Source of the DNA: an uncultured virus (IMG/VR IMGVR_UViG_3300042898_003498) | Lineage: Duplodnaviria > Heunggongvirae > Uroviricota > Caudoviricetes | IMG/VR virus record: IMGVR_UViG_3300042898_003498 | Strand: one strand, 5' to 3' | Length of the DNA: 20,000 nt | In this document: positions 1 to 16,559 of the stretch, in pieces | Layout of the letters: each line of letters opens with the position of its first letter | Position numbering within the stretch: the first letter of the stretch is position 1 | Notes under the pieces: model-generated | The model's database searches: none | The model's input: the letters and a program-made list of their open reading frames with translations, nothing else | What the model was told of the DNA's origin: nothing | Program-made: the position numbers and the translations under genes

Positions 1-636
1 GCCCAAGAACTGCTGACACAATTCTTTCTTAGGTAATCCGCTGCCCGCAAAGTGAATTAAGAAGTCACCTGGTGTCCATTGTCCGCTATTGCCAGTCTTG
101 TCGATATCACTGCGATAAATGTTCCAATACAATTGTCTGTACAAGAAACTGTTAAAAGTTTTCTGCGGAACAAACTTAAACAAGTGACCATATGTATGCA
201 TGTTATCAATCATGGCCTGCTGTTCCCACCACATGTGTGTTTGATACTTTTCAACTTGTGTCCACAGAAATGCAAAGTACTCTCTGCTTTCTGGACTATT
301 CTTAATCATAAAACTATCAGCATTGATATCGTTAATATCTTTAGCCATAACAATATGGTAATCTTCGTCAATGAAACTCTCTAGTTTGATGTAGAAGTTA
401 GTGATTAATGTATCAGCACCTGCCCAATACAACCAATCGTATTCAGGATGTTCATTCATAACGTCCAGCATGAACTTGATCTTCTCGTAGCTAGGGCAAT
501 AAGTGAACCCATCTGTCTTAACGTGATATGGATAACCCCAATGATCACAATATAGTTTCTTATTTTGTGTCCAGCTTACGTCAGCTAGGGCTTGATAGTT
601 ATGATCCCATAACTGGCATACTGCAATTTTTGTCAT
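1..636 (-). CDS. GT34 (GMA12/MNN10-like) glycosyltransferase, runs off the window start
   Basis: Not in the ORF track; translated by hand from ATG at 636, which overlaps the rmlC stop. MTKIAVCQLW...NKKLYCDHWGY...EKIKFMLDVMNEHPEYDWLYWAGADTLITN...DINADSFMIKNS...WEQQAM...WTPGDFLIHFAG matches the GT34 motif order. Confidence 0.8.
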   Translation of the reverse strand, partial: MTKIAVCQLWDHNYQALADVSWTQNKKLYCDHWGYPYHVKTDGFTYCPSYEKIKFMLDVMNEHPEYDWLYWAGADTLITNFYIKLESFIDEDYHIVMAKDINDINADSFMIKNSPESREYFAFLWTQVEKYQTHMWWEQQAMIDNMHTYGHLFKFVPQKTFNSFLYRQLYWNIYRSDIDKTGNSGQWTPGDFLIHFAGSGLPKKELCQQFLG

Positions 637-1196
637 AATGTTCCTTGAAATTTGTAACAGTCATTCCAGCTTGGATGCTTTTTATCTCGCTCACTTATTA
701 CAAGTGATTGATCAGCAAGGAATGGCCATTGAATGTTTAGTGTAGCATCTTCTGCATCTATGCCACACTCTGCTTCGGCATTGTAATAGTTGTCTAATTT
801 GTAATTAACATAAGTGTTAGGATCTAATGTTAGGAATCCGTGATAAAATCCACGAGGGATATACACGATGCTCGGCTCGTCTTTTGATATAACCACTTTG
901 CAAGATTGTCCATATGTAGGACTATCTGTTCTAGCATCTACTAACACATCTAATATACTTCCGTTAAAAACACTAACTAATTTAGCCAATGGTGCAACTG
1001 CTGATTGAGAGTGCATACCTCTTAGTGTATTTGCATTTGCACTAAAGCTAGTATAATCAAATATAAACTTACTTGCAATACCTGCATCTTCCAACCAGCT
1101 TTGTCTAAAGTCTTCAGTGAACCATCCACGACTATCACCTAGTCGTTTTAGTTTAAAGACCTTAGCATCCTTTAACGGTAAGTCATAATATTCCAT
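633..1196 (-). CDS. rmlC: dTDP-4-dehydrorhamnose 3,5-epimerase
   Basis: GDSRGWFTE, TLRGMH, KLV..G.ILDV.VDAR..SPTYG, YIPRGFYHGF and ISERDKKHP motifs. Confidence 0.93.
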   Translation of the reverse strand: MEYYDLPLKDAKVFKLKRLGDSRGWFTEDFRQSWLEDAGIASKFIFDYTSFSANANTLRGMHSQSAVAPLAKLVSVFNGSILDVLVDARTDSPTYGQSCKVVISKDEPSIVYIPRGFYHGFLTLDPNTYVNYKLDNYYNAEAECGIDAEDATLNIQWPFLADQSLVISERDKKHPSWNDCYKFQGTL

Positions 1197-2875: not shown

Positions 2876-3154
2876 ATGGGAGATTTCTTAAAATTAGTAG
2901 CAGAGTTAGGCTTCCCAATTGCGGGAGCATTGGCTGCTGGATACTTTGTTTTCCTAACATTGAAATTTATTCTTGCTGGAGTAACATCTAGCGTAAATGG
3001 CATGGGCGGCATTATCAAAGGGTTGGATAGTCGGGTTGATACCATGACTAACCAGCTACAGCGTATCGATGTTAAGGTAAGCCATGCACTAGGATTACAA
3101 CCAGACTACGATCGTATTGCTCGTGCAGATCAAGTCGATCAAAGGAAAGACTAA
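2876..3154 (+). CDS. Small single-pass membrane protein with coiled coil (GFPI motif, YvrJ/holin-like)
   Basis: GGAGG SD; ELGFPIAGALAAGYFVFLTL hydrophobic helix followed by a heptad-like segment. Confidence 0.75.
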   Translation: MGDFLKLVAELGFPIAGALAAGYFVFLTLKFILAGVTSSVNGMGGIIKGLDSRVDTMTNQLQRIDVKVSHALGLQPDYDRIARADQVDQRKD

Positions 3155-3306: not shown

Positions 3307-3666
3307 ATGGATCTAGTAGAAATGATCAACAAGTACGGATTCCCTATCGTTGCTGCTGGCGGAATGGGATACTTCATATACTACGTATGGACTTGGGTAA
3401 CTACAGAGATTAAACCAGTTATAGGCCAAGCTAATGGAACACTGATAGCTCTCATTGATCGTATCAGAATGTTGGACAATGATCTTATTAGATTAAATCA
3501 GAAAGTAGAGACAGTAATGGAACTACGTGGTAAGACCATTGAGAAAGAACGTATTGCTGCTGATGCAAGTATTAACAAAGAACCTGAACCAGTTAAATCA
3601 CTATCTCCCATACCTCAAAGGAGATTTACACAACAAGAAATTAATGGTGCATCAGGTGATGATTAA
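3307..3666 (+). CDS. Small membrane protein, paralogue of 2876-3154
   Basis: AAGGAG SD; KYGFPIVAAGGMGYFIYYVW, then LIDRIRMLDNDLIRLNQKV aligns with LDSRVDTMTNQLQRIDVKV. Confidence 0.78.
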   Translation: MDLVEMINKYGFPIVAAGGMGYFIYYVWTWVTTEIKPVIGQANGTLIALIDRIRMLDNDLIRLNQKVETVMELRGKTIEKERIAADASINKEPEPVKSLSPIPQRRFTQQEINGASGDD

Positions 3667-4197
3667 TACCTGAGAGGGTATCCAGTTTTGTTAGATTGTG
3701 AAGCCATACGACACCCTCTTCGGAGGGTGATCTTTTGTGTTTGTTGAGTTGCTCGGCACACACTGAGACAATAGGTATTTAGATTTCCACGCTTCTGGGC
3801 TCTGTACCTTACCCAACCTATTACGACTTTTAAACTAACTGCGGTGTCACTGTTAGTATGAGCGTGTAGGAAATCGTTTCAACTGTTACGACTATTCAAA
3901 TGTTTCGTGCCACTGGGCAGACATTTAAGCATCCTTTCGGGTAGTGAATAGAAGCTGCCTTCGCAATGAGGCTAATGTCAGTGGGTCGCTTGTTAAGAAC
4001 CTTGACCAGCAGAGGATCAACTGGCGCTGCTACGCCTTCTGTTGCGATGATAGGAGTATGTAAATGTATGTTACTACATTGTACAGGTGATCCAAAATGA
4101 TCACAATGGAGATCCAAAGTTTGGAGGTCTTTTAGATTTTGTTATTTTGGGCGACAACTCATCAGTTCTTTGAACTTATCTTTGTGCCCTCCTATTG
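3667..4197 (+). ncRNA. Candidate large structured non-coding RNA (family not recognised)
   Basis: More than 12 stems including nested long-range helices (3782-3793/3861-3875, 3892-3898/3945-3951, 4048-4056/4189-4197), GAGA and cUUCGg tetraloops, and G-U pairs consistent with the + strand; no credible CDS. Confidence 0.6.
3712..3736 (+). terminator. cUUCGg hairpin; possible intrinsic terminator of the + operon or part of the ncRNA
   Basis: CACCCTC-TTCG-GAGGGTG followed by ATCTTTT. Confidence 0.45.
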
Positions 4198-4209
4198 AGA
4201 AGTACGGCC

Positions 4210-4242
4210 AAAAGTATGCTAAGACGCACAGCCTAGCATACT
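4210..4242 (-). terminator. Intrinsic terminator after the adenylate cyclase gene
   Basis: Minus-strand AGTATGCTA...TAGCATACT stem followed by a T run, about 20 nt past the stop. Confidence 0.6.
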
Positions 4243-4260
4243 CGTCTAGCAGATCTTCCA

Positions 4261-6324
4261 TCACTTTGATGTTGCCTTGTAGGTACCATCCCAGTCACTA
4301 GGCAAATCTCTTGAGCGCATGTCAGCAATACGCTCTTGCCACAATGCATAATACTCATCCATCTTGCCATCGAACTCTCCTACTAGATCTTGACAGATAG
4401 TAATAGCCTTGTCCCATTCCTGCTTGCGATAATGTGCCAACATTAAATCGTGCATTTCACGAGCCATGATCCAATCTGCTGCTACTGTAACATCGGGATT
4501 GTAAAACACTGTGTAGATCGTAACTCCGATGCTCTTGCCTTTAACAGCAATAGTATCTAGTTCAATAGTAAAGTATTCATCACCTACTCGAGCCTGTGTA
4601 AATTCGCTAATGATGATTAATACACCGTAGTTCTTAGTTTGGCTTTCTAAACGAGCGGCGAGACTTACGCTGTCACCGAGTACGTCATAACCAAAGCGAT
4701 CCTTCGATCCAATGTTACCGATTAGTGTAGGGCCTGTGTTAATACCTAATCCGCAGCCAACTAAGGGCTTGCCTTCTTTGGTAAGTTCAATGTTAAACAG
4801 TTCAACAGCATGTAGCATTTCAAGTCCGGTGCGCACAGCGGCCAGCACATGATCTGGATCTTGTTCTTCTTGAATTGGAGCACCATGAACGTGCAATGAC
4901 GCATCACCGATGAACTTGATTAAACAACCGTTGTTGCGTAAGATGGGCTCTGCAATAGCAGTCATGTAACGATTCATAGTATGAGTAAATGCCACAACAT
5001 CATCGCCGTAGGTTTCGCCCAGGCCAGTGAAGTTACGCATGTCACTCATAATGATACTCAAGTCTTTCTTTTCGCCTCCTAGTTTAATAAAGCTAGGATC
5101 TTTTTGTAGTCGTTCAACAATTATGGGATTTACATATCCACCGAACTGTTTCTTGATTTGTTGCTTTTGGAAGAACTCATCAAGGAATTTAACCACATAG
5201 GCGTGTAATCCAACCAATACAACACCGCAGACAAAAGCAGTAGTATCAAACAAAATACCGTAGCCATTATAAGCCCATATACTACCACCGATGCTAACCA
5301 AAACAAGACCAACCATAAATCCAATACCAACATACATCCACCTTGTTAAAAATAGTAACAATAAGCCTGCTGCTATAATAGCTGCCACTTCTAAGTCATC
5401 TGCATATCCGGGTCGTTGTATTGCAGTATCCGATAACAGGGTACCTAATAAACTAGCCTGCATGTCCTGCGGCCAAATCTCGCCACGAGCAGTGGCCACC
5501 GGCTGAACTAGACCTGCTGCACTTAATCCCACAATAACAACTTCACTGTTAAAGTCTTTGGGCAATTTAGCAAGACTGTGTTGCTTAGGTTGCTGACTCC
5601 AATCAATCCATACACGACTCAATGGATCTACGTTGATGCGATTCAGTTTAGGAATACGCACTGCCTCGACGCCCATATCTGTGATCTTAGCCTGTATCCT
5701 AGTGTCACCTGCTGCTAGTCTAAGTGTTTCTAATCCAATAGCAGGATGCACAGTTCCACTGCTTAGTATTAACAATGGCATACGACGAACAACACCATCT
5801 ATTTCAGGAAAGGTATTTACAATGCCCGTGCCGGCTGCACGTTCTTCCAGCATAGGGACGTTAGCGATAATGCCTGGATATTCTACCAGACTACCTTGCG
5901 GATCGACACCTACGATCTGCACAGGACTTCCGAACGTCTTATTCTTCCCTGTGGTGCTGGCAACCTGTGGCAGCACTGCTGGATATTTTTCTAATGCTTG
6001 GGCCAGTTTATTATCTTGACCAAACCTATCTGCTTCAGGCATAAGGATATTGAGCACAACAAGGCCAGCGTTTCTGTCATATAGGTCTTTAATAATGTCA
6101 GCATATAGTCCTCGAGGAAATGGGAATTGTCCATACTTGTCTAATGCAGCCTCATCTATATTGACAGTATGTACAGGGATGTCTTGTGTAGGTTGGCTAG
6201 TGATCAGTTGATCAAAATAGCGTAGTCTAACTGATTCCACAAATGCAGGATCTGCAAATCTAACACCTGCTACTAATAGTAATGTGATTAGGGCCAACCA
6301 CGGGCTTAATAAAATCTTCTTCAT
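4261..6324 (-). CDS. CHASE2-domain membrane class III adenylate cyclase
   Basis: N-terminal TM; CHASE2 (VNIDEAAL..YGQFPFPR, DGVVRRMPL); three TMs; cyclase motifs MSDMRNFT, KFIGDA, GINTG...GNIGS..RFGYDVLGD, AARLE, VKGK; C-terminal TPR-like WDG tail. Confidence 0.93.
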   Translation of the reverse strand: MKKILLSPWLALITLLLVAGVRFADPAFVESVRLRYFDQLITSQPTQDIPVHTVNIDEAALDKYGQFPFPRGLYADIIKDLYDRNAGLVVLNILMPEADRFGQDNKLAQALEKYPAVLPQVASTTGKNKTFGSPVQIVGVDPQGSLVEYPGIIANVPMLEERAAGTGIVNTFPEIDGVVRRMPLLILSSGTVHPAIGLETLRLAAGDTRIQAKITDMGVEAVRIPKLNRINVDPLSRVWIDWSQQPKQHSLAKLPKDFNSEVVIVGLSAAGLVQPVATARGEIWPQDMQASLLGTLLSDTAIQRPGYADDLEVAAIIAAGLLLLFLTRWMYVGIGFMVGLVLVSIGGSIWAYNGYGILFDTTAFVCGVVLVGLHAYVVKFLDEFFQKQQIKKQFGGYVNPIIVERLQKDPSFIKLGGEKKDLSIIMSDMRNFTGLGETYGDDVVAFTHTMNRYMTAIAEPILRNNGCLIKFIGDASLHVHGAPIQEEQDPDHVLAAVRTGLEMLHAVELFNIELTKEGKPLVGCGLGINTGPTLIGNIGSKDRFGYDVLGDSVSLAARLESQTKNYGVLIIISEFTQARVGDEYFTIELDTIAVKGKSIGVTIYTVFYNPDVTVAADWIMAREMHDLMLAHYRKQEWDKAITICQDLVGEFDGKMDEYYALWQERIADMRSRDLPSDWDGTYKATSK

Positions 6325-6327
6325 ATT

Positions 6328-6615
6328 TTATTCCTCGCAGTTCCAGCGGCTTAGTGCTTTGGCTTTTGGAGTAGGACGACCTTTCTCATCCTTCATAGGG
6401 CCTTTATTGCCACTCATTCTAGCACAGAAACTCTTACGGCGTTTAGCATCTTTGCTACCTGCTTTTAGTTTGCTAGGTTTAGTAGTGACCGCAGTCTTTA
6501 ACTTGCTACCTGGATTCTCTCTACGATAAGCATTAACAGCTTTTTGACTGAGTCCGTCCGTCTTGTCTTTCTTATTGACCTTGTTCCAGTCTTCTAAAAG
6601 TTCTTGAATCTTCAT
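6328..6615 (-). CDS. Basic phage protein (DUF6321-like)
   Basis: YRRENPGSKLKTAV...RRKSFCARM...ALSRWNC, a pattern typical of T4-like phage proteins; N-terminus MKIQELLE. Confidence 0.75.
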   Translation of the reverse strand: MKIQELLEDWNKVNKKDKTDGLSQKAVNAYRRENPGSKLKTAVTTKPSKLKAGSKDAKRRKSFCARMSGNKGPMKDEKGRPTPKAKALSRWNCEE

Positions 6616-6809
6616 TTCTTTTTAGCCTTCCCTGCTTTCATATTGGCCAGCCAATGTGCCATACGCTGCTTTTCACCTGAACTGTTTTTAGCAGTTTTAC
6701 GTAAGCTACTAACGCTGGCTTTGGTATTTACTCCGCTGCGTTTAGCCAATCCTTTACGTCCAGGATTTTTGCCATCTGCAAAGTTTTCTAATAGCTCACT
6801 TACCTTCAT
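6612..6809 (-). CDS. Small basic phage protein
   Basis: MKVSELLE N-terminus, Lys/Arg-rich, overlaps both neighbours. Confidence 0.72.
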   Translation of the reverse strand: MKVSELLENFADGKNPGRKGLAKRSGVNTKASVSSLRKTAKNSSGEKQRMAHWLANMKAGKAKKK

Positions 6810-7242
6810 GAGGTTTCTCTCCAGTCATGTAAGGAAGCCCAAACCATAATTTAAACCATTCTGCATCGCCAGGTTTAATATTGTGTTTATGCATTATGTT
6901 AGTTTTTTCTTGACTTGCTTGTCCAAACGTTTCACCATAGCTGGTAGAATGTTTACTTTCTTCTACTCCGCCGTCACCGCTGTAGCTAGCGTCATAACCG
7001 TACCATCCGTAAGGGCCTGGACCGTAAGCTGCATTTTTAATTTTTTTACGCTTACGTTTACGTTCTTCAATTGGGGCTTCTTCTAAACTACCGCCGCCTT
7101 CCATAATAGCCCATTCTACTGCTGTGAATTTAGGTGTAGGTTTTGCAGACATTTCAGCATCAAGTTTAGCTTGTAAACTTTCTGTATAGGTTAACGGCTT
7201 CTGCGGTTTGGCAGGTTTCTTAATAAGGTCGTCGAATCGCAT
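6796..7242 (-). CDS. Hypothetical phage protein (modular, low complexity)
   Basis: ATG at 7242 (MRFDDLIK) lies 4 nt after TATAAATA and is preferred over the track start 7281, which lies inside the upstream gene; IKPGDAEWFKLWF motif. Confidence 0.72.
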   Translation of the reverse strand: MRFDDLIKKPAKPQKPLTYTESLQAKLDAEMSAKPTPKFTAVEWAIMEGGGSLEEAPIEERKRKRKKIKNAAYGPGPYGWYGYDASYSGDGGVEESKHSTSYGETFGQASQEKTNIMHKHNIKPGDAEWFKLWFGLPYMTGEKPHEGK

Positions 7243-7246
7243 CGAG

Positions 7247-7254
7247 TATTTATA
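7247..7254 (-). promoter_or_regulatory. T4-type late promoter TATAAATA
   Basis: Exact T4 gp55 consensus in a 13-nt intergenic gap. Confidence 0.7.
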
Positions 7255-7255
7255 G

Positions 7256-9130
7256 TCAATTGCCCTGGGTGACGCTAACACTGCAACCAGAAAGGGTAGC
7301 GCATTGTTGTGTAATATTGATGTTCTGTGCTGTTGTACCCTGTTGAACTAGATTAACTGTACTAGCACCACCTGCATTGGTTAAGTTAATAGTGGCTTTA
7401 TGACTGCCCGCATCCTTCTGATTAGCAGTAACTGAATGTCCGTTACCAGTTAAACTCAAATCAAGGTAACTTATTGATCCCTGCTGTGTAACGTCAAACA
7501 CATTACTATTGCCGTTGACTATGCCAAAGAACGTTTTTTCACCGTTACCTGTTTGCCTTAATGTAGCGTTGTTACCGTTGCCTGTAACATCAACATAGGC
7601 AAAATGACCGCTTGAGCTTCCACCGTCATTACTCTGTCTTAGATTTGATGTATTGCTGTTACCAGTAATTTTTAAACCTATATAATGGCCGCCACTTTCG
7701 CCGCCGTCTTGTAGACCAGTTGAGGGATTACGTGCTTGCCATATACTGACATTATTGCTGTTACCAGTTACATTAAACTCAATTAAGTTCTTGCCCAGTG
7801 TGTCACCTTGCTTGATGTTCAATGTATTGCTGTCACCGTCGATGATAGCATAGTCAGTACCGCCTATTCCAGAGATCTTGTTGTAGTTGCCAGTTTGTTC
7901 GATGTTTACTGTATTGCCACTGCTACCAATCTTCTGATCAATGTAAAGGCTGTTGCCTAATACAACATTACTAACACGATTCTTTGCAGAATTTTTCTGT
8001 GCTGTCTGTCCGACAGTAATATCACTAGTTGCTGGCCAACTAGGAGCACAGTCTGCACAGACACTGCCTGCTTGTCCAGGATTACTAGGAGTAGATCCTG
8101 CTGCTTGATCTGTGCTGGTTACACCGTCGTTCAAATCATAGTAGTATGTAACTTCGGAGATTTGAACACTGTTACCGCTGTCGTTTTTAATACTGGGAAA
8201 CTTTATAAAGTAATAGACATAGGCAGTGGTGTTGTCCACTGATATTTCGCCACTGACGCTAAATCTACTGTCGGATAAACTTAATGGTCCTTCTTTAATT
8301 AAAGTCCAGTTAACTCCATTATTTGAACCGTATAGTTTGTAACTAGCAGGATCGCGCTCAACTGCATCATTGGCAGTGGTTATTGTGAATTTTCGAACCA
8401 CACGTCCTTGACTTAGTCTTACAGTAACACCTGCATTCTGTTTATCAAAATTTAGATACTTGGTATTGACATTACCGTCAAAGGCATTAGCCGCACCTTC
8501 GTTACTAGGGCTATTATTGCTGGTAGGAAATATATTGCTGATAACAACTGGAGTACTGTTAGTTCTAATCATCTTCCAGTCTACTACTGGTGCGGCTGGC
8601 TGTGCTGTTTGTCCTGCTGCCAACGGTGTTGAACTTGGGGGTGTGTATGCTTGTAACTGTGCATTATTCGGGTTGTCCTGGGTCACTGCCCAATTGCCAC
8701 TTTGTCCGTTGTTGTATCCCTGACCAGTAGTAATCAATGTTCCCCACATGCCGTTACCATTATAGAAGATGGCACCGTCTGCCAGGGCACGGAAAGATCC
8801 TGTGTTGTTGATAATTTTGTAGACGCTGCCGTTACTGTTAAAAACAGCCATACCATAAGTACCGGGATTGGTCGTGCTGTTGAAAAATCCAATATATCTA
8901 CCATTGCTGTTAGCATCCTGTGTCTGTGCTAAGGTCCAACGAGCCGCACTGTTAGTTTGAGTAGCATAGTTTACACTTGAATAGATGTAGTTGAATCCGC
9001 TGGCATACAATCTGCCTCCGCTAACATACCATTGCACATCAAAAATCTGTGCTGTACTAAGTTTTAGATCCGTAATAGCACCAAAGACATTTGAGCATAA
9101 AAACATTAAAGCAAATAATATCTTTTTCAT
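7256..9130 (-). CDS. Secreted protein: unknown N-domain + F5/8-type C (discoidin/CBM32-like) domain + C-terminal curlin-like repeats
   Basis: Signal peptide; NAFDGNVNTKYL...PASYKLYGSNNGVNWT...YYFIKF...VQISEV; repeats NIEQTGNYN, NIKQGD, LRQTGNGE, DVTQQG, NLVQQG. Confidence 0.8.
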   Translation of the reverse strand: MKKILFALMFLCSNVFGAITDLKLSTAQIFDVQWYVSGGRLYASGFNYIYSSVNYATQTNSAARWTLAQTQDANSNGRYIGFFNSTTNPGTYGMAVFNSNGSVYKIINNTGSFRALADGAIFYNGNGMWGTLITTGQGYNNGQSGNWAVTQDNPNNAQLQAYTPPSSTPLAAGQTAQPAAPVVDWKMIRTNSTPVVISNIFPTSNNSPSNEGAANAFDGNVNTKYLNFDKQNAGVTVRLSQGRVVRKFTITTANDAVERDPASYKLYGSNNGVNWTLIKEGPLSLSDSRFSVSGEISVDNTTAYVYYFIKFPSIKNDSGNSVQISEVTYYYDLNDGVTSTDQAAGSTPSNPGQAGSVCADCAPSWPATSDITVGQTAQKNSAKNRVSNVVLGNSLYIDQKIGSSGNTVNIEQTGNYNKISGIGGTDYAIIDGDSNTLNIKQGDTLGKNLIEFNVTGNSNNVSIWQARNPSTGLQDGGESGGHYIGLKITGNSNTSNLRQSNDGGSSSGHFAYVDVTGNGNNATLRQTGNGEKTFFGIVNGNSNVFDVTQQGSISYLDLSLTGNGHSVTANQKDAGSHKATINLTNAGGASTVNLVQQGTTAQNINITQQCATLSGCSVSVTQGN

Positions 9131-10296
9131 CTGAAGTTCTGATTGATAACAATCTGTCCTTGTGGTTTACCTGCTGAAAAATTCCAACTGTTGGTCTGCA
9201 TGTCTTGTGTAACAACTACCAATGCCTGTGTGTTCAACGGCATAACAACATTAGCATAGTTACGATTGTTTGGGCTTAGACTTTCATACATCCAACCAAT
9301 CTGTTGTGTTTCACTTTTGTCTTTAAACAGTTTCTTCACGTAGGGATTGTCTGTTTCGCCCACTGCCGCTACATCATTAATTGCGGCCTCTTTGTTTGTC
9401 TTTGCGTCAACTCCTACCTTAGTTCCGTTAGCAGCTTCCTCATCGCTCTCATTAGCACTTCGTCTTTGTCTTTGAGACCTATTACTCTCACCTTCTTGCT
9501 TGCCTGCTACATGTTGCTTCTCTTGATCTTTGGCATCATCCTTGTCTTCTTTTTTATCTCTGTTATCAGATCTTCTAGCATCACCAGTGGCCACTGCGGC
9601 AGCACGAGCCGCTGCTATCACATTTACGCCAGTAGTTGTTTGTGGAGGACTAACCATTAGGTTATTGCCAATAGCCATACCATTAAGAGCAACAACGACA
9701 GCAGGACTCGGAACACCGTTTAGAGTTTCAACTAGTGTAGCTTGATAAGGACGAGTTAGTTGAACTATGCCAGACGGAGTTTCTACATCAATAGCACCAC
9801 TACCGCAGGATAATCCTTTTAAGTTTATGTTCTGTTCTAATTCGCAAGTGGGCATTAGCATGATCATACTGGCACCAGTTTCACTAACAGCCATAACAAA
9901 GTCAGTGCCACGAACAGCAATGGCTGCTGTGGGTGTGTTGATTTTTACATTCTTAGGGTCTTTGGCTATGCTACCTGATACGTATCGAACAGTTCCTGCG
10001 GCTGCTTTAAGTCCCAGCTTGCCTGCTCCGCTCTTAGGATCATATACGAAATCATCAATAACAAGACTACTCGACTCAGTAACAGTGACATTTGTATCGT
10101 CTTTAAAAACAATCTTGACTCGACCGTTTTTAGTTTCAACTCGATCATTAGTTTTGATTTCAGTGCCTTTAGCAACTTGAATAGTATCCTTACCGCGTTT
10201 GATAATGGCCGTGCCCGTAGCTTCGGTAACACTACCGATATCTGCCCAGGCTGATGTAGCCAGCAGCAGGCCCGCGATAAGAGCAACAACTCTCAT
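9127..10296 (-). CDS. Secreted FecR-domain protein
   Basis: Signal peptide (AWA-D); DRVETKNGRVKIVFKDDT...INTPTAAIAVRGTDF FecR signature; charged linker and C-terminal domain. Confidence 0.85.
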   Translation of the reverse strand: MRVVALIAGLLLATSAWADIGSVTEATGTAIIKRGKDTIQVAKGTEIKTNDRVETKNGRVKIVFKDDTNVTVTESSSLVIDDFVYDPKSGAGKLGLKAAAGTVRYVSGSIAKDPKNVKINTPTAAIAVRGTDFVMAVSETGASMIMLMPTCELEQNINLKGLSCGSGAIDVETPSGIVQLTRPYQATLVETLNGVPSPAVVVALNGMAIGNNLMVSPPQTTTGVNVIAAARAAAVATGDARRSDNRDKKEDKDDAKDQEKQHVAGKQEGESNRSQRQRRSANESDEEAANGTKVGVDAKTNKEAAINDVAAVGETDNPYVKKLFKDKSETQQIGWMYESLSPNNRNYANVVMPLNTQALVVVTQDMQTNSWNFSAGKPQGQIVINQNFR

Positions 10297-10305
10297 TGCC
10301 GCTCC

Positions 10306-11094
10306 TTAGTTCTTCTGCGTGATATTGAATGTACCGCTGTTGCTTACACTCTTGATATTGATAACGTTGTCGATAGTTCCAGTTTGGCTCATAGTTAAAC
10401 TATTGCCGTTACCAGCCAAGTCAACCCAAATGCTACTTCCGGCAGCACCAGTACTACGTTGATTAATATCGAATGTATTAGTGTCGCCCACTACTTTAAT
10501 AGTTTGTGTGTGCTTGTCACCGATGGCATCAATACGGAATACGTTGCTGTCACCCGATACATCGACGGCACTCTTAAGGTCACTACCTGTACCACGGAAC
10601 TGTAGGTCGTTACTGTCGCCAGTGAACTTCCAATTAATATCTGCAGCATTGGCTGCTGTTAACGCTGGAGTACCAGTTGAAGCATTGCCGTATCCTAATG
10701 CGGCATCAACTTTGTTATTATCACCGATCTGTTGAATAGTAATGTTTACACCTTTACCGGTACCTGTAGTGTCGTTCGATGCTTCTAACATAATTTCATT
10801 GCCTACGCCAATTTGACGAGTAACAATCGTTTGATCAATACCACGTAGGTATACCGGACGAGCAGTACTTCCTGCCTTGTTACCAGTACCATCTTGTGTC
10901 ATGTTGACATTAGGATTGTCACCGCTTTGGTCAATAAAGATACGGTTAGTTGTAGCAATGGCCAAAGCGGCTGTCGCGTTAGGGCTAACTGTGGCCATTG
11001 TAGGTATTGTTGGTGCTGACGGTGCCGATACCGCAGTCTGTGCAAAAGCCGGTAGTGTTGCGGCTAATATAATTGCTAATAGTGTTTTTTTCAT
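10306..11094 (-). CDS. Curlin-like (CsgA/CsgB-like) secreted repeat protein
   Basis: Signal peptide (AFA-Q); QxGxxN repeats IDQSGDNPN, TQDGTGN, RQIGVGN, QQIGDNN, SQTGTIDN. Confidence 0.8.
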   Translation of the reverse strand: MKKTLLAIILAATLPAFAQTAVSAPSAPTIPTMATVSPNATAALAIATTNRIFIDQSGDNPNVNMTQDGTGNKAGSTARPVYLRGIDQTIVTRQIGVGNEIMLEASNDTTGTGKGVNITIQQIGDNNKVDAALGYGNASTGTPALTAANAADINWKFTGDSNDLQFRGTGSDLKSAVDVSGDSNVFRIDAIGDKHTQTIKVVGDTNTFDINQRSTGAAGSSIWVDLAGNGNSLTMSQTGTIDNVINIKSVSNSGTFNITQKN

Positions 11095-11111
11095 GTTGTT
11101 GCTCCGGTATA

Positions 11112-11285
11112 TTAACCAGTATCCTTATTTTGTTGTTTGGATCCTGCTGCCTGATCCGTCGGTAGCATTCCAACTACCCGCTTCTTTGTTTCCTCCAACA
11201 ACCTTTCCGTTGCCGGACTGTGTTGATGGTGAGGAAGGTGCTTTGGCGGTTCCTTCACGTGGGGTTTCCTTTTGAACCAACTCAT
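11112..11285 (-). CDS. Possible overprinted small ORF (57 aa) in the csgG 3' extension
   Basis: AAGGAG SD a few nt before ATG 11285; MSWFKRKPHVKEPPKHLPHHQH..., in a different frame from csgG. Confidence 0.3.
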   Translation of the reverse strand: MSWFKRKPHVKEPPKHLPHHQHSPATERLLEETKKRVVGMLPTDQAAGSKQQNKDTG

Positions 11286-12087
11286 TAGGTTTCTCCTTGA
11301 ATTTCCACAAGTTTTGACGTTCACCTTTGTTGATCAACTCTATAACTGCGGTTTCAATAGCTGAACGCAGTGCATAGTTACCTGGCTCATTAAATGTTTG
11401 GCTACTGTCAAATTCAAATGCTCGTGTTGCCTGGTTGAAAAATTTCAACGCAGTGGTGCCATCGGCAGTACTGAGCAAGTTCTTTTCCACTGTAACAGTG
11501 GTCAATACTTCCCCAGTTTGAACACTTACTAGGCGTAGGCTGATAACCACGATGTCTTGAGTATAAGCAGTTTGTGCTCCAATACCTAACCAACGTGCTC
11601 CAGTTCCGCCTGTTAGTGTGTTACTGTTGTAGTCAATGATGCCGCCTTCTAGTATAACGCCGGCCATTTGTAATGGAGGTAGCATCTTGGCGTTAGCACC
11701 GTCATAGATCTCGCGTGTCTGCTTAATCATCTGACGCTCTTTTAATAAGTTGTCCAACCCTACTCGTTCAACAACTGTAAACCATTGACGGTTGCCAACT
11801 TCTTGCAGACTCTTCATTAGGTATGCTTCAGCACCTTGTGTAACTGCTGTAGAGAACAAGCTCAATGTACTGCTTGGTTTGCGCTGTCCTGTTAGGTCTT
11901 TGAAACCATATACAGCCACTGTGACTGCTGGGCCAGCTGGACTAGGCACATTGGCAAAACTTTTATTGATTGTTTCGCTTACTCGAGCTTCTTCTTTAAT
12001 AGCAACTTCGCCCCATGGACGTACTGTTGAACAGCCAGCTAGTGTTGCGATTGCTAAAGTGATTAAGGATAATTTAATTGCTTTCAT
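11125..12087 (-). CDS. csgG: Curli secretion channel lipoprotein CsgG
   Basis: Lipobox LAGC; VAVYGFKDLTGQRKP, STAVTQGA, WFTVVERVGLDNLLKERQMI, EGGIIDY, GGTGARWLGIG, LRLVSVQTGEVL. Confidence 0.93.
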   Translation of the reverse strand: MKAIKLSLITLAIATLAGCSTVRPWGEVAIKEEARVSETINKSFANVPSPAGPAVTVAVYGFKDLTGQRKPSSTLSLFSTAVTQGAEAYLMKSLQEVGNRQWFTVVERVGLDNLLKERQMIKQTREIYDGANAKMLPPLQMAGVILEGGIIDYNSNTLTGGTGARWLGIGAQTAYTQDIVVISLRLVSVQTGEVLTTVTVEKNLLSTADGTTALKFFNQATRAFEFDSSQTFNEPGNYALRSAIETAVIELINKGERQNLWKFKEKPNELVQKETPREGTAKAPSSPSTQSGNGKVVGGNKEAGSWNATDGSGSRIQTTK

Positions 12088-12096
12088 ATTTTCTCC

Positions 12097-12582
12097 TTAA
12101 AAACTAAAACTGGCAATTGGAACAACTACAGTAGTTACTGTGCCCTTGGCATCTACCACAGTTAGTGTAACTTTGTCATTAGCCTTGCGCCAAGTAACTG
12201 TATTGCCGTCTAGCACAAAATTACCAGTGTCTGGATTTACACAGCCAGGAATTGCTGTGCCATCTGCTGCGGCACATCGGTTAGTGAACAAGTTGTTGCT
12301 CAACTGTGTTGCCAACTGAGCATAAACTTGACTTTGGAATAGACCCATAAATCTATTCAAAGGTGTATTTAATAAGTCAGCTTCTGCTTTGGCAATAGCT
12401 GCTTTTTTATCTGCTGCAATAGCATCACGACGTGACTTTTCAATGCTGTCTATCGTTAAGACATGGCTGCTGAATCCAATGCCGCTAAAAGCTGGATTTT
12501 TGAATTGTTGTACCAATTCTGCATTAACTGAAGTAGCGGCTAGTGTGAGCCATACTCCTAATGCTAGTATATGTTGTTTCAT
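12097..12582 (-). CDS. csgF: CsgF-like curli assembly factor
   Basis: ATG 12582 with GGAG SD; signal peptide, then ELVQQFKNPAFSG (CsgF FxNPxFxG); directly upstream of csgG. Confidence 0.8.
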   Translation of the reverse strand: MKQHILALGVWLTLAATSVNAELVQQFKNPAFSGIGFSSHVLTIDSIEKSRRDAIAADKKAAIAKAEADLLNTPLNRFMGLFQSQVYAQLATQLSNNLFTNRCAAADGTAIPGCVNPDTGNFVLDGNTVTWRKANDKVTLTVVDAKGTVTTVVVPIASFSF

Positions 12583-12606
12583 TGTTCGCTCCAATGTCCT
12601 CTATCA

Positions 12607-14458: not shown

Positions 14459-14464
14459 TATTTA
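14459..14464 (-). promoter_or_regulatory. T4-late-like promoter core TAAATA
   Basis: Overlaps the upstream stop codon, 7 nt before ATG 14451. Confidence 0.5.
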
Positions 14465-15133
14465 GTGAAATTCTGGGAATAGTATTTCCTGAACAAATTT
14501 TTTCATAGTATCTTCAGGTATGCCCATGCTGATCATACTCTTAATAACATGGGGGTTTTGCTTTTGCCAGTGACAGTATCTATTTTGTGCCATATGAAAG
14601 TCAGCTACATCTTGTTGATCATGTCCTACTTTGCTTAGATAAAAATCCAATGTAGTCAGTGCTGTACTGCACAGTTGATCAATTTCTGCTTCATCTTGTA
14701 AGTTGCCTGCGGCAACCATTGCAGGGCTAAAGATTTGCTGTGCCCATTCAGGCAGCTGCCTGGGCTTATTCCATTCTAATCCATGTACCTTGGCTTTAAA
14801 CCAAAGATACATAAAACTAGTAGGATCCCCTGCATGACTAAAGTCATGGAAAGCACCTGTTATTTTGTTAGGGCCGCACACAGCATCAAACCCATAGATA
14901 GGGCTAGGATCGTTAAAGTGTGGAAATACTGTACAATGAAGAATGTAGATATTGTAGGTTTCACGGAAGTCTACAATTTCTACATGTGCCCTACGAAAAC
15001 GATCACTAGTCCATATAGTGTTATGCCAACCGTACTGATGTGCAGCATCACTATTGACTACTGTACCTGCGGCATTGAACTTTTCTGTAAGGTCTGCGGC
15101 TAACTTACTAACTTTATCCCAAACTACTGTCAT
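14462..15133 (-). CDS. Ferredoxin-dependent bilin reductase (PcyA/PcyX-like)
   Basis: FRRAHVE, ILHCTVFP, PIYGFD, AFHDFS, RQLPEWA..IFS and QNRYC..QKQN motifs; adjacent to heme oxygenase. Confidence 0.9.
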   Translation of the reverse strand: MTVVWDKVSKLAADLTEKFNAAGTVVNSDAAHQYGWHNTIWTSDRFRRAHVEIVDFRETYNIYILHCTVFPHFNDPSPIYGFDAVCGPNKITGAFHDFSHAGDPTSFMYLWFKAKVHGLEWNKPRQLPEWAQQIFSPAMVAAGNLQDEAEIDQLCSTALTTLDFYLSKVGHDQQDVADFHMAQNRYCHWQKQNPHVIKSMISMGIPEDTMKKFVQEILFPEFH

Positions 15134-15650
15134 AGTCCCTCATCATGCGTATTGCCCAATCAAAGGCTACATTGGCTTCATCGCCCATGCTGTCGTCTAA
15201 CTTAGCACGAATATTGGTCATTAGTGTGCGGGCATCTTCGAACTCTAAGTTACGATGTGCGCCCGGGACAATCTTCTTAATCATTTGGCCACCGAACATG
15301 TCGCCCATGTGCCATGTATATAAGTGCGCCATAATCTTATTAGGATCTTTGCTGATACTCAACAGGTAGTTGTAGTATTCAATGACAATAGGTCGAAACT
15401 CGTGACGGGGATTTTTACCGTTCATTTCAGCATAGTCCATTGCTAGATAAAACGCACGACGTAAATCTGGCAAGTCTCCTAACAATCTATTAGCACCTGC
15501 GGCACCTTCAATGGCTCCATAGAAAAGCCACTTTTGATATGTCCAATCTACCCACAAATCAAAAGGCAGGGTCCTTGCGAACACTGCCTTCATAAACGGA
15601 GTAGATTCAGCCTCTGCATGTTTTGCAGCGGTTAAATCTTTTAAACTCAT
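15114..15650 (-). CDS. Heme oxygenase (HemO/Ho1-like)
   Basis: LKDLTAAKHAEAE (proximal His) and AHLYTWHMGDMFGGQMI (distal helix); EANVAF. Confidence 0.92.
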   Translation of the reverse strand: MSLKDLTAAKHAEAESTPFMKAVFARTLPFDLWVDWTYQKWLFYGAIEGAAGANRLLGDLPDLRRAFYLAMDYAEMNGKNPRHEFRPIVIEYYNYLLSISKDPNKIMAHLYTWHMGDMFGGQMIKKIVPGAHRNLEFEDARTLMTNIRAKLDDSMGDEANVAFDWAIRMMRDYDSSLG

Positions 15651-15657
15651 TATTACC

Positions 15658-15963
15658 TCATTCTGGTTCTACTTTAATTATCAAAGGATAGCCGCTAGAA
15701 CGAGCAAGATTGGTTGCGTCTAGAGCTTTTTGTTCTGCAACTTCATAGTTAAAAATTCCAGCAACCGCACTGCCGCTATTATGGATCTTTAGAGTTAATT
15801 CTAGTGCAGATTTATCATTGTGCCTAAACACTGCGATAAGCATGGAAATTACAAACTCAACAGGAGTTACATCGTCGTTGCATACAACGACTTTAAACTT
15901 ACCTGGTTCTTTAACAGAATCGGTAGTCCTAGTTTTCTTTTCATTAATAGTATCAGTTGCCAT
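15658..15963 (-). CDS. clpS: ATP-dependent Clp protease adaptor ClpS
   Basis: KVVVCNDDVTPVEFV...IHNSGSAVAG...EVAEQKA...GYPL. Confidence 0.92.
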   Translation of the reverse strand: MATDTINEKKTRTTDSVKEPGKFKVVVCNDDVTPVEFVISMLIAVFRHNDKSALELTLKIHNSGSAVAGIFNYEVAEQKALDATNLARSSGYPLIIKVEPE

Positions 15964-15988
15964 TGTTTTAAATTTATTAGGGTTAATA

Positions 15989-16008
15989 CTAGGGGCCGAA
16001 GCCCCTAG
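15989..16008 (-). terminator. cUUCGg hairpin after hsp20 (terminator or stabiliser)
   Basis: CTAGGGGC-TTCG-GCCCCTAG on the minus strand; weak U-tract. Confidence 0.6.
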
Positions 16009-16011
16009 ATT

Positions 16012-16452: not shown

Positions 16453-16528
16453 AATTTTCTCCTTATTAAGTAAGACAATCTGGGCGCTATTGCCCTGTAC
16501 TAAACCTTTAAAGTATTCAGTACATATA

Positions 16529-16559
16529 TATTTATACACAGAATATCGATCTTTGTCAA
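16529..16559 (-). promoter_or_regulatory. Composite sigma70 + late promoter for hsp20
   Basis: TTGACA-N17-TATAAA, where the -10 is part of TATAAATA. Confidence 0.7.

What the first reader, a model, noticed from the sequence alone, without database searches (positions are those of the whole stretch)
3667..4197. About 530-nt densely folded intergenic region: candidate novel large phage ncRNA
Seen: this is the only long non-coding gap in an otherwise tightly packed window, and nearly all of it can pair. Stems are TACCT-GAGA-GGGTA (3667-3680); CACCCTC-TTCG-GAGGGTG (3712-3729); TGTTGAG/CTCGGCA (3742-3758); long-range GATTTCCACGCT/AGCGTG..GGAAATC (3782-3793/3861-3875) enclosing ACTAAC/GTTAGT; a three-way junction CTATTCA/TGAATAG (3892-3951) holding AAATGT/ACATTT+TGCC/GGCA and ATCC/GGGT; GCCT/AGGC; GGTC/GACC; CAGCAGA/TCTGTTG (4007-4044); and a domain closed by TGATAGGAG/CTCCTATTG (4048-4056/4189-4197) holding AATGTA/TACATT, GTGATC/GATCAC, TCCAA/TTGGA, GGGC.ACAA/TTGTGCCC and AGTTC/GAACT. 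Mismatches read as G-U on the + strand. Established: large ornate ncRNAs such as GOLLD and ROOL occur in phages. Inference: this is a functional RNA of a class I do not recognise; a structured DNA element such as an origin is an alternative.
Basis: partly seen in the sequence, partly recalled or inferred. Interest (0 to 1): 0.85.

Follow-up and report, generated by a model that had tools for sequence, protein, structure and literature searches.

The report
Large structured phage RNA, opposite strand
The gap holds a real, widely conserved, roughly 390-base folded non-coding RNA gene of uncultured T4-like water phages. It is read from the opposite strand to the one proposed, is distantly related to a known orphan RNA motif, and carries two copies of a short word that always change together.

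Summary
The folded element is real, but smaller than described and on the other strand. It spans about 3680-4071; nhmmer places it at 3682-4067.

**Distribution.** Its 20-base core occurs in 47 IMG/VR stretches and 108 metagenome stretches. I found it in no cultured phage.

**Structure.** On 38 distinct sequences, a 17-helix model with one pseudoknot is 91.4% paired against 77.4% in shuffles (0/500). Of 83 pairs, 53 show changes on both sides.

**Strand.** The minus strand is favoured by:
- G-U over A-C cells in helices, 193 to 37, and GNRA loops in 20 of 21 copies of an accessory hairpin;
- a sigma-70-like -10 box upstream in 24 of 38 sequences, against 2 of 38 on the other strand.

Against this, the window's own folding z-score is better on plus (-1.90 against -0.32).

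**Relatives.** The 5' domain is a distant relative of Rfam Polynucleobacter-1 (RF01718), which covers only the first part of a longer RNA.

**Oddest feature.** Two 6-8 nt words flank one hairpin. They are identical to each other in 94 of 96 sequences, while the word itself differs between lineages.

**Function.** Unknown. My best guess is a free-standing trans-acting RNA whose words set its target specificity.

The part from 4072 to 4260 is promoter, spacer and the cyclase gene's terminator, not RNA structure.

The parts
4078..4106 (-). Sigma-70-like promoter of the RNA: -35 TTGTGA (4106-4101), 17-nt spacer, -10 TACAAT (4083-4078). The predicted start near 4071 is inferred, not mapped.
   Evidence: Promoter scan. 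A -10-like TGnTAyAmT lies 15-110 nt upstream of the conserved AAGG on this strand in 24 of 38 relatives, against 2 of 38 on the opposite strand of the same stretch.
3680..4071 (-). Body of the structured RNA, about 390 nt. Both ends are inferred. This subgroup has no clear terminator of its own.
   Evidence: nhmmer places the family profile at 3682-4067. Relatives align over this stretch. Covariation. RNA-library contigs lie at 3744-3896 and 3872-4013.
4006..4034 (-). Helix H1 of the 5' domain (CUAGCAG/CUGCUGG) with a conserved GCCRG-containing loop.
   Evidence: helix 2: 98.4% paired; 2 pairs with changes on both sides. It corresponds to the first hairpin of RF01718 in the cmscan alignment.
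3957..4008 (-). Helices H2 (two-tier, 4008-3976) and H3 (hairpin 3972-3957).
   Evidence: helices 3-5: 94.7%, 80.5% and 72.6% paired; 11 of 13 pairs show changes on both sides. Alignment here is imperfect.
3892..3951 (-). Three-way junction. The closing helix is 3951-3945 with 3898-3892. One arm is ACCC-GAAA-GGAU (3942-3931, GNRA loop on this strand). The other is AAAUGU...ACAUUU with an inner GC helix (3926-3899).
   Evidence: helices 6-9: helix 6 is 98.5% paired and 7 of 7 pairs covary. This is the part that matches the RF01718 core CACUAYCC...GGAYG.
3786..3871 (-). Central domain. A long helix (3871-3869 and 3865-3861 with 3793-3786) encloses hairpin 3857-3834 and the invariant block GGGUAAGGUACAGAGCCCAG (3814-3795).
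   Evidence: helices 11-13 and 15. The 20-mer is exact in 47 viral stretches and 108 metagenome stretches.
3771..3821 (-). Pseudoknot: AUAGGU (3821-3816, inside the central domain) pairs with ACCUAU (3776-3771, outside it).
   Evidence: helix 14: 99.1% paired; 4 of 6 pairs with changes on both sides.
3739..3751 (-). Word copy 1 (DR1): CAACUC followed by the word AACAAAC.
   Evidence: The first six letters of the word equal those of copy 2 in 94 of 96 distinct sequences.
3709..3732 (-). Hairpin Pa between the two word copies (stem 3729-3712). In this subgroup it also reads as an intrinsic terminator for the + strand 119-aa gene (hairpin plus T run, 3712-3739).
   Evidence: helix 17: 91.9% paired, with 48 G-U cells on the - strand against 8 A-C cells. 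Terminator scan on the + strand. Its 3' arm is also complementary to the loop of hairpin 3857-3834.
3685..3697 (-). Word copy 2 (DR2): AAUCU followed by the word AACAAAAC. It marks the 3' edge of conservation.
4209..4242 (-). Intrinsic terminator of the cyclase gene, not part of the RNA. Stem AGUAUGCUA/UAGCAUACU, 12-nt loop, then UUUU.
   Evidence: Read from the sequence. The consensus scan did not list it.

Best explanation
Window about 4071 to 3680, - strand, encodes a free-standing structured non-coding RNA of about 390 nt.

**Architecture.**
- It has its own sigma-70-type promoter, which would make it an early gene read by host RNA polymerase.
- In most relatives it also has its own 3' hairpin module and terminator. 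The window's subgroup lacks these.
- It has a 5' multi-hairpin domain with a three-way junction. This domain is distantly homologous to Rfam Polynucleobacter-1.
- It has a central pseudoknotted domain with a 20-nt invariant core.
- It has a 3' part in which hairpin Pa is flanked by two copies of a 6-8 nt purine-rich word.

**Context.** It sits among auxiliary 'moron' genes at changing positions in uncultured T4-like phages related to HTVC008M and Melnitz. More distant relatives lie in Polynucleobacter chromosomes and MAG contigs, beside a DUF6641 gene (7 of 8 loci) and, in one locus, an integrase.

**Mechanism (inferred, not shown).** It acts in trans as a stable RNA. The conserved core binds an invariant partner, either a host or phage factor or the RNA's own tertiary fold. 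The two identical, lineage-specific words are exposed recognition sites. They would pair with one and the same co-varying partner sequence and so set target specificity. Pa may toggle with an alternative pairing of its 3' arm to the loop of hairpin 3857-3834.

**My odds:**
- real structured RNA family: 0.95
- - strand: 0.85
- homology to RF01718: 0.8
- trans-acting with the words as a specificity code: 0.35

The overall confidence given for this explanation (0.5) weighs the well-supported identity against the inferred mechanism.
For: **Family and covariation.** The 20-mer core occurs in 47 viral stretches and 108 metagenome stretches. Members are 54-88% identical to the window. The structure is 91.4% paired against 77.4% in shuffles (0/500). 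Of 83 pairs, 53 change on both sides, against 37.7 expected. That amounts to 450 cells against 131. Slid controls give 37-42% paired.

**Strand.**
- G-U to A-C is 193 to 37 in helices. GNRA loops (GCAA, GUGA, GCGA, GUAA) occur in 20 of 21 accessory hairpins.
- The - strand folds more stably in 28 of 40 members. RNAalifold gives -43.5 against -31.3.
- The promoter motif occurs in 24 of 38 against 2 of 38.
- In many relatives the upstream gene's terminator precedes the promoter, and a terminator-like hairpin with a U run follows the RNA.
- The upstream gene is co-directional in 30 of 40 loci. Both neighbours are co-directional in 15 loci, against 6 for the other orientation.

**Free-standing gene.**
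- Its position differs between relatives.
- The commonest neighbour families occur in only 8 of 42 loci.
- Of 35 flanking ORFs scanned against Pfam, those with matches include rubrerythrin, redoxin, a fatty-acid desaturase, NUDIX, GTP cyclohydrolase I, UvdE and a cyclase.

**Expression hint.** Two short contigs from RNA libraries of two studies lie wholly inside the element. None lies on the flanking genes.

**Words.**
- The first six letters are identical in 94 of 96 distinct sequences, across 9 word classes.
- The same rule holds in Polynucleobacter-type relatives, read by eye: AGCGAAA, AUCAAAAG, GGAGAAAG, GCAUAAU and AGCGAUG.

**RF01718 link.**
- RF01718 hits the - strand at 17.5 bits in the window and 24.2 bits in L067.
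- My 5'-domain model R1 hits L100 at 51.8 bits (E 3e-15).
- R1 also hits RF01718 sites in L097, L095, L092 and L096 at 14.2, 13.3, 11.6 and 7.4 bits, on the same strand. The L092 hit covers only the 3' two-thirds of the site.
- In six chromosomal loci, conservation continues to about +450 nt from the motif start and then drops to about 0.35 identity.
Against: **Strand and structure.**
- The window's own sequence folds no better than shuffles on the - strand (z -0.32; 33 of 100 shuffles as good). It folds better on + (z -1.90).
- 12 of 40 members, including the window's subgroup, are more stable on +.
- Two invariant U-G pairs (+ reading) at helix ends become C-A on the - strand.
- The loop of hairpin 3834-3857 reads as cUUCGg or cUGCGg on + in many members.
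- The structure was predicted on the same sequences it is tested on, which inflates the contrast with slid controls.
- All members were fetched through one exact 20-mer.

**Expression.**
- No strand-resolved transcript data exist. The RNA-library contigs give no strand and could be DNA carry-over.
- The 3' end in the window's subgroup is undefined, and the promoter is a consensus match only.

**Words and function.**
- I found no partner for the words. There was no cis complement within 900 nt and none in the neighbouring tmRNA of L067. Five relatives' contigs gave only the self site plus chance-level one-mismatch hits.
- The alternative Pa pairing has only one covarying pair.
- Function is therefore inference.
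Confidence: 0.5

Rival explanations
1. The RNA is made from the + strand. It would be the structured 3' extension of the 119-aa gene's transcript.
For: - The window's own z-scores favour +.
- 3712-3729 plus its T run is a canonical + strand terminator with a UUCG loop.
- Two invariant U-G pairs appear in the + reading.
- 12 of 40 members are more stable on +.
Against: - Family-wide G-U to A-C is 193 to 37 for the - strand, and GNRA loops appear only on -.
- There is no conserved promoter-like motif on + upstream of the element. In several relatives an ORF stop lies about 10 nt from the element's edge.
- In L011 the + reading would need a promoter inside the divergent cyclase gene.
- A terminator at 3729 would cut a + transcript after only 45 nt of the element.
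Confidence: 0.1
2. It is a self-processing or mobile RNA. The two identical words would be twin processing sites, for cleavage or ligation, recognised by one active site. Processing would release or rejoin the Pa-containing segment of about 55-70 nt.
For: - Word identity together with similar 5' flanks, CAACUC and CAAUCU.
- An invariant pseudoknotted core is typical of catalytic RNAs.
- The gene changes position between genomes.
- In one distant relative a SegE-type GIY-YIG homing endonuclease gene ends 11 nt upstream.
Against: - No internal guide complementary to the words was found.
- There is no match to any Rfam ribozyme or intron family.
- One search shows no joints, but the two contigs do not cover the word region (3685-3751), so this says little.
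Confidence: 0.15
3. It is a cis-regulatory leader or trailer, riboswitch-like, of a neighbouring gene such as the CHASE2 cyclase.
For: - Weinberg et al. 2010 (PMC2864571; table passage seen) flagged RF01718 as probably cis-regulatory.
- In the window and L005 it follows the cyclase, and in L011 it precedes it.
- Two segments compete for one partner, as in an expression platform.
Against: - Only 3 of 39 cyclase loci have it within 4 kb.
- Flanking genes are unrelated between loci.
- It has its own promoter after the upstream gene's terminator, and in many relatives its own terminator.
- 13 of 42 loci are convergent junctions with no downstream gene to regulate.
Confidence: 0.07
4. It is a DNA-level element, such as an origin, recombination site or protein-binding array, and the structure signal is incidental.
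For: - Direct repeats and hairpins occur at origins.
- T4-type origins use a promoter plus a downstream unwinding element (recalled, not tested).
Against: - Compensatory changes keep pairing across 17 helices and a pseudoknot.
- The strand asymmetry of G-U pairs and the GNRA loops have no meaning for duplex DNA.
Confidence: 0.03

Closest known systems
Polynucleobacter-1 RNA motif (Rfam RF01718; Weinberg et al. 2010, PMC2864571: table passage and seed-alignment excerpt seen)
   Same: - Same strand and same order of elements in the 5' domain. There is a first hairpin with a GGCC/GCCGG loop, then further hairpins, then a junction with the core CACUAYCC...GGAYG closed by a covarying helix.
- Reciprocal weak model hits fall at the same places, and an intermediate (L100) scores 51.8 bits with my model and 25.8 bits with RF01718.
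- Full loci share the twin words after AACUC and AAUCU. They also share a hairpin between the words and a 3' hairpin with a GA/GAA internal loop followed by a terminator.
- Function is unknown in both.
   Different: - The window scores 17.5 bits against a gathering score of 37. nhmmer finds no similarity between the window's family and true RF01718 loci.
- RF01718 models only about 141 nt. The RNA it belongs to is conserved for about 450 nt or more.
- The window's family has the invariant 20-mer pseudoknot core.
- The window's own subgroup lacks the 3' module.
- The window's family is in T4-like phage contigs. RF01718 is patchy in Polynucleobacter chromosomes (7 of 61 genomes), next to DUF6641.
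GOLLD, ROOL and OLE-type large 'ornate' bacterial and phage RNAs (bioRxiv 10.1101/2024.12.08.627333: search listing and start of abstract seen)
   Same: All are large, multi-domain, covarying non-coding RNAs of unknown biochemical function, carried by phages or mobile elements and found by comparative analysis.
   Different: - There is no Rfam match to any of them.
- This RNA is smaller, about 390 nt in the window's family and longer in the Polynucleobacter-type relatives.
- Whether it forms RNA-only multimers is untested.
- The twin covarying words have no counterpart that I know of.
Phage immunity RNAs with short specificity sequences (P4 CI RNA with seqA/seqC; P1/P7 C4 RNA). Recalled from memory, no call.
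   Same: A conserved RNA scaffold carries short words that differ between close relatives. In P4, two near-identical direct repeats flank the RNA on one transcript and pair with one complementary word.
   Different: - Those RNAs are under 100 nt, and the complementary word lies between the repeats.
- Here no complement lies between or near the words.
- The resemblance is a lead for how it might work, not evidence of membership.
Phage-encoded permuted tmRNA (present in Melnitz and in relative L067)
   Same: It is a structured RNA gene carried by the same phage group. In L067 it lies about 1 kb downstream of the element.
   Different: ARAGORN finds no tmRNA in the window. No tmRNA model matches the element, while true tmRNAs score 61-113 bits. 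They are distinct genes.

Membership tests
Rfam RF01718 Polynucleobacter-1 | Covariance-model score at or above the curated gathering score (37 bits). | tested here: not met
   The window scores 17.5 bits at 3889-4035 on the - strand. The best family member, L067, scores 24.2 bits. 9 of 11 sources tested gave no hit at E<=1.
Rfam RF01718 Polynucleobacter-1 | Shared architecture and core sequence (hairpins, then a junction with CACUAYCC...GGAYG) on the same strand. | tested here: met
   The cmscan alignment spans the full model, 1-141. My model R1 hits RF01718 sites in 4 of 8 true loci (E 0.003-0.5; the L092 hit is partial). It also hits an intermediate locus at E 3e-15.
Rfam RF01718 Polynucleobacter-1 | Same downstream architecture in full-length loci (twin words, hairpin between them, 3' module). 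| tested here: met
   Read by eye in L092-L100. Conservation continues to about +450 nt. It was not tested with a model.
GOLLD / ROOL / OLE / HEARO / raiA large RNAs | Match to the family's Rfam covariance model. | tested here: not met
   There were no hits at gathering score over the window. None appeared at E<=10 over 3500-4400, and none at E<=1 in 10 relatives.
tmRNA (standard or permuted) | tRNA-like domain plus tag reading frame, as detected by ARAGORN or Rfam. | tested here: not met
   ARAGORN found 0 genes. No tmRNA model hit the element. Positive controls were Melnitz at 113 bits and L067 at 61.5 bits.
Group I intron | P3-P7 pseudoknot with a P4-P6 domain, interruption of a host gene, and an Rfam Intron_gpI match. 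| tested here: not met
   The pseudoknot topology is superficially similar. However, only about 8 nt lie where P4-P6 should be. The element is intergenic, and there is no Rfam hit.
Independent bacterial-type transcription unit | Own promoter upstream and own terminator downstream. | tested here: inconclusive
   A promoter-like motif is present in the window and in 24 of 38 relatives. Terminator-like hairpins are seen in many relatives by eye, but not in the window's subgroup. No transcript ends have been mapped.

The most novel reading that the evidence does not exclude
The RNA would be a programmable recognition device of a new kind. A conserved, pseudoknotted scaffold presents two copies of one lineage-specific word, with at least 9 words in this family and 5 more in distant relatives. 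The words would pair with a co-evolving nucleic-acid target and so set specificity. Possible roles include competition or exclusion between related phages, control of a phage transcript, or capture of a particular host RNA such as a tRNA. On the tRNA idea, positions 3-5 of the words read CAA, CGA, AUG, UGG, AGA or AUA, and in 13 of 14 words a purine follows (the exception is AGCGAUG). That resembles a T-box specifier, but this is an untested observation of mine. The Rfam motif Polynucleobacter-1 would then be only the 5' third of a class of mobile-element RNAs several hundred nt long.
Probability: 0.25. Interest if true: 0.85.

Novelty: new variant of a known kind. Interest (0 to 1): 0.68.

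Why it matters
Large structured RNAs without a known function are rare, and they have repeatedly led to new biochemistry. This one matters for four reasons:

- It is abundant in environmental phage sequence: 47 viral stretches and 108 metagenome stretches carry its exact core.
- It has strong covariation and a pseudoknotted invariant core.
- It links an orphan Rfam motif from 2010 to a much longer RNA carried by phages and chromosomal islands.
- Its twin words change in lock-step, which gives a direct experimental handle. Change one word or both, and look for the partner.

It also corrects the annotation of this locus: strand, extent, promoter, and two terminators belonging to the neighbouring genes.

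Tried and rejected
**Searches that found nothing**
- Rfam at gathering score and at permissive thresholds. Only noise appeared, apart from the weak RF01718 hits.
- ARAGORN.
- blastn of the gap, and of the 95-nt core, against 50,697 phage records. There was no match, or only chance hits at E 0.9.
- BLAST of the element against the whole Melnitz and HTVC008M records. All hits had E >= 0.58.
- nhmmer of the family profile against true RF01718 loci.
- The search of earlier findings by place and by sequence.

**Leads rejected**
- The Roseivirga MAG hit to the 18-mer is a chance match inside what looks like coding sequence.
- tmRNA identity was considered because Melnitz carries a tmRNA near the homologous genes. 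It was rejected.

**Hunt for a partner of the twin words**
- No cis complement lies within 900 nt, with G-U allowed.
- MI analysis gave only lineage-level correlations.
- There is no complement in the tmRNA of L067.
- An 11-mer complement searched in five relatives' contigs gave the self site plus chance-level one-mismatch hits.
- The window scan with 2 mismatches was at chance level: 7 hits against 9.9 expected.

**Other negatives**
- A constant neighbouring protein gene: none. The best clusters occur in 8 of 42 loci.
- An ORF reading was considered. The gap holds only short ORFs of up to 73 aa. Conservation follows helices, but I ran no codon-level test.
- The RNA-library contigs left the flanking genes uncovered. 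I do not count this as evidence of absence of their transcripts.

**Errors and corrections**
- No whole genome is held for the window.
- One genome search had a wrong 'of' argument. It was corrected.
- My first word census used a flawed rule, taking the last ATCT. I replaced it with a first-match rule.
Full report
**Setting.** The window comes from a T4-like phage related to Pelagibacter phage HTVC008M and Methylophilales phage Melnitz (Kyanoviridae).
- The CHASE2-adenylate cyclase (4261-6324, -) has its closest cultured homologues there, at 36-40% identity.
- The small protein at 3307-3666 does too, at 56-62% identity.
- The window also carries the same curli-like CsgF/CsgG/FecR module, plus heme oxygenase, a bilin reductase, ClpS and Hsp20.
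- The gap 3667-4260 lies between convergent genes.
- No whole genome is held for the window.

- Whole gap: z -3.38 on +, -2.03 on -.
- Part 3680-4071: z -1.90 on +, -0.32 on -.
- Part 4072-4260 on +: z -1.87.

Comparison between sequences is what settles it.
- BLAST against loci fetched through the cyclase gene found the stretch 3684-4102 in three relatives. It lay at three different positions relative to the cyclase.
- With the family profile, only 3 of 39 cyclase loci carry it within 4 kb. The window has one copy, at 3682-4067.
- An invariant 20-mer from its centre is exact in 47 IMG/VR stretches.
- It is also exact in 108 metagenome stretches.
- The 18-mer matched three genome-collection contigs. 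Two are real members on short MAG contigs and one is a chance match.
- Members are 54-88% identical to the window.

**Structure.** I aligned 38 distinct sequences with MAFFT (A3). I dropped two very divergent rows (L064, L071) and two truncated ones (L069, L084). The structure came from block-wise RNAalifold, helix scans and a hand-added pseudoknot.

The pair-count tool gives:
- 83 pairs in 17 helices;
- 91.4% of cells paired against 77.4% in shuffles (0 of 500 reach it);
- 53 pairs with changes on both sides against 37.7 expected;
- 450 such cells against 131;
- 37-42% paired and 18-25 covarying pairs when partners are slid by 1-3 columns.

The best helices are:
- the three-way-junction stem (7 of 7 pairs covary);
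- the long helix of the central domain (5 of 5);
- hairpin 3834-3857 (6 of 6);
- the pseudoknot 3816-3821 with 3771-3776 (4 of 6; 99.1% paired).

Two caveats apply. The structure was derived from the same sequences it is tested on. All members were fetched through one exact word.

Its 4007/4044 pairing is not. The covarying partner of 4006-4012 is 4027-4034 instead. Its 4048-4197 domain is also not confirmed, because relatives share nothing beyond about 4102.

**Strand.** The family evidence points to the - strand.
- In the helices, G-U cells outnumber A-C cells 193 to 37. For Pa alone the figures are 48 to 8.
- An accessory hairpin present in 21 of 38 members, though absent from the window, has GNRA loops in 20 of 21 when read on -.
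- The - strand is more stable in 28 of 40 members, and RNAalifold gives -43.5 against -31.3.
- A -10-like TGnTAyAmT with a TGAC-type -35 lies just upstream of the conserved body on - in 24 of 38 members. It occurs in 2 of 38 on the other strand. In the window this is TTGTGA-17-TACAAT at 4106-4078.
- Many relatives show the pattern of upstream-gene terminator, then promoter, then RNA. They then have an A-rich linker, a hairpin with a GA/GAA internal loop, and a terminator-like hairpin.
- The upstream gene is co-directional in 30 of 40 loci.

Some evidence points the other way.
- The window and its closest relatives fold better on +.
- Two invariant U-G pairs of the + reading become C-A on -.
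- Some loops read as UNCG on +.

The first of these has a likely reason. In this subgroup a convergent gene ends 10-18 nt from the RNA's 3' edge. Hairpin Pa (3712-3729) has there become a GC-rich UUCG or UACG hairpin followed by a T run. That is a + strand terminator for the convergent gene.

**Expression.** One search found two RNA-library runs from two studies. Laid on 3400-4500, each gave one short contig wholly inside the element, at 3744-3896 and 3872-4013. They differed from the window at only 3 and 6 letters (95-99% alike). Neither run gave anything on the flanking genes. Contigs give no strand and may include DNA, so this is only a hint.

**Relation to known RNAs.** No Rfam family reaches threshold. 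The only recurring weak hit is Polynucleobacter-1 (RF01718), on the - strand. It scores 17.5 bits in the window and 24.2 bits in L067, with a full-length alignment through the junction core.

True RF01718 RNAs score 75-102 bits. They occur in 7 of 61 Polynucleobacter genomes searched, with 1-2 copies each.

My covariance model of the window family's 5' domain (R1) gives:
- 51.8 bits (E 3e-15) at a chromosomal locus (L100) that RF01718 scores at only 25.8 bits;
- hits at the RF01718 sites, same strand, in 4 of 8 true loci (14.2, 13.3, 11.6 and 7.4 bits), the L092 hit covering only part of the site.

Reading the full loci shows the same downstream plan:
- AACUC plus a word, then a hairpin, then AAUCU plus the same word;
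- an A-rich linker;
- a hairpin with the GA/GAA loop;
- a terminator.

In six chromosomal loci, identity stays at 0.73-0.90 to about +450 nt from the motif start. It then falls to about 0.35.

The 2010 seed alignment covers only the first 135-170 nt (PMC2864571, supplement excerpt). The paper's table lists the motif as probably cis-regulatory, from Burkholderiales and fresh water. A full-text search for the motif name found only that paper.

I conclude that the window's RNA belongs to a superfamily of which RF01718 describes the 5' piece of a distant branch. It fails the family's own score threshold.

**Twin words.** Hairpin Pa is flanked by CAACUC plus a word (3751-3739) and AAUCU plus a word (3697-3685).

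I took the first match to each flank motif in 96 distinct sequences. The first six letters of the two words are identical in 94.
- One exception is a mis-hit of my rule in a divergent member.
- The other is a single mismatch.

The word itself differs between lineages. The classes are AACAAA (window), AGCAAA, AGCGAA, AACGAA, AGCGAG, AGAUGAA, GGAUGAA, AGAUGAG and AGUGGAA. The distant relatives add AGCGAAA, AUCAAAAG, GGAGAAAG, GCAUAAU and AGCGAUG.

This needs repeated parallel changes, so identity is under selection. I could not find a complementary partner.

There is a second case of two segments matching one partner. The loop of hairpin 3834-3857 (UGACACC) and the 5' arm of Pa are both complementary to GGUGUCG (3715-3709). 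The loop pairing is 99.6% complementary, but only one pair covaries (AU 29, GC 7, GU 2).

**Context and likely role.** Neighbours differ from locus to locus.
- Of 35 flanking ORFs scanned against Pfam, those with matches include rubrerythrin, redoxin, a fatty-acid desaturase and NUDIX.
- Others include GTP cyclohydrolase I, UvdE, DUF4337 and a cyclase.
- The commonest neighbour clusters appear in only 8 of 42 loci.

This fits a free-standing 'moron'-type gene.

In Polynucleobacter genomes the relatives sit divergently next to a DUF6641 gene in 7 of 8 loci. One locus has an integrase nearby, and one MAG contig has a SegE-type GIY-YIG endonuclease.

I infer a stable trans-acting RNA made early by host polymerase. 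Its invariant pseudoknotted core would bind a constant partner or build a tertiary fold. Its twin words would be a lineage-specific recognition code. This last step is inference (my odds 0.35).

The rivals, with my odds:
- a self-processing RNA with twin processing sites (0.15);
- a + strand RNA (0.10);
- a cis-regulatory element (0.07);
- a DNA element (0.03).

**Verdict.** The RNA is real, widespread and unusually informative. It is not wholly new, because it extends an orphan Rfam motif, so I class it as a new variant of a known kind. Interest 0.68.

Noticed in passing
window 4261-12594 (- strand): A phage-borne curli-like secretion module runs from CsgF (12097-12594) and CsgG (11125-12087) to a FecR-domain protein (9127-10296). 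It continues with a curlin-repeat/F5_F8 protein (7256-9130) and ends with a CHASE2-adenylate/guanylate cyclase (4261-6324). Melnitz and HTVC008M have the same gene order, but there the small phrog_18771 genes are co-directional with it. In the window the module is inverted relative to those genes.
   Followed up: partly
window 14462-16539 (- strand): Auxiliary genes typical of cyanophage-like myoviruses lie here. They are a ferredoxin-dependent bilin reductase (14462-15133), heme oxygenase (15114-15650), ClpS (15658-15963) and Hsp20 (16012-16539).
   Followed up: no
window 2876-3154 and 3307-3666 (+ strand): Two paralogous small proteins of PHROG 18771 (unknown function) lie just upstream of the RNA gene's 3' edge, separated by a 49-aa ORF.
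   Followed up: no
L001:14-447 (Melnitz record): The permuted tmRNA of Melnitz (113 bits) is followed directly by a glutamine riboswitch aptamer (52.8 bits) inside the span annotated as tmRNA.
   Followed up: no
L067:3078-3407: One relative carries a permuted tmRNA (61.5 bits) about 1 kb downstream of the structured RNA, on the same strand.
   Followed up: partly
L045, L048, L050, L065, L072, L079, L081: 5' leader between promoter and conserved AAGG: In one clade the leader holds 3-4 repeats of AGGCA or AGGCU spaced 8-12 nt apart. In the window's subgroup the leader is instead CA-rich (ACAUACAUUUACAUAC). They may be protein-binding repeats.
   Followed up: no
relatives, 25-60 nt downstream of the second word copy (e.g. 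L051, L063, L070; also L092-L099): A conserved small hairpin has a covarying 5-bp stem, an internal loop 5'-GA/GAA-3', a 2-bp stem and a 4-6 nt loop that is often GNRA-like. A terminator-like hairpin follows. The module is absent from the window's subgroup.
   Followed up: partly
L093-L100 (Polynucleobacter genomes): A DUF6641 gene of about 145 aa lies divergently upstream of the RF01718-type RNA in 7 of 8 loci. A segment GGUUUCGC about 70 nt upstream of the Rfam motif start is complementary to a third word-like copy (GCGAAACC). It changes with that copy in L096 (GGUUUUGC with GCAAAACC), so the RNA may start upstream of the Rfam boundary.
   Followed up: partly
window RNA, - strand: about 3889-3885, 3827-3823 and 3711-3707: The motif UCGUA recurs three times, each just 3' of a helix: AAUAG-UCGUA, AAAAG-UCGUA and GGUG-UCGUA. 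It may be a repeated tertiary or protein-binding motif.
   Followed up: no
window 1-1196 (- strand): A GMA12/MNN10-type glycosyltransferase (1-636, runs off the window) and dTDP-4-dehydrorhamnose 3,5-epimerase (633-1196) lie in the phage.
   Followed up: no
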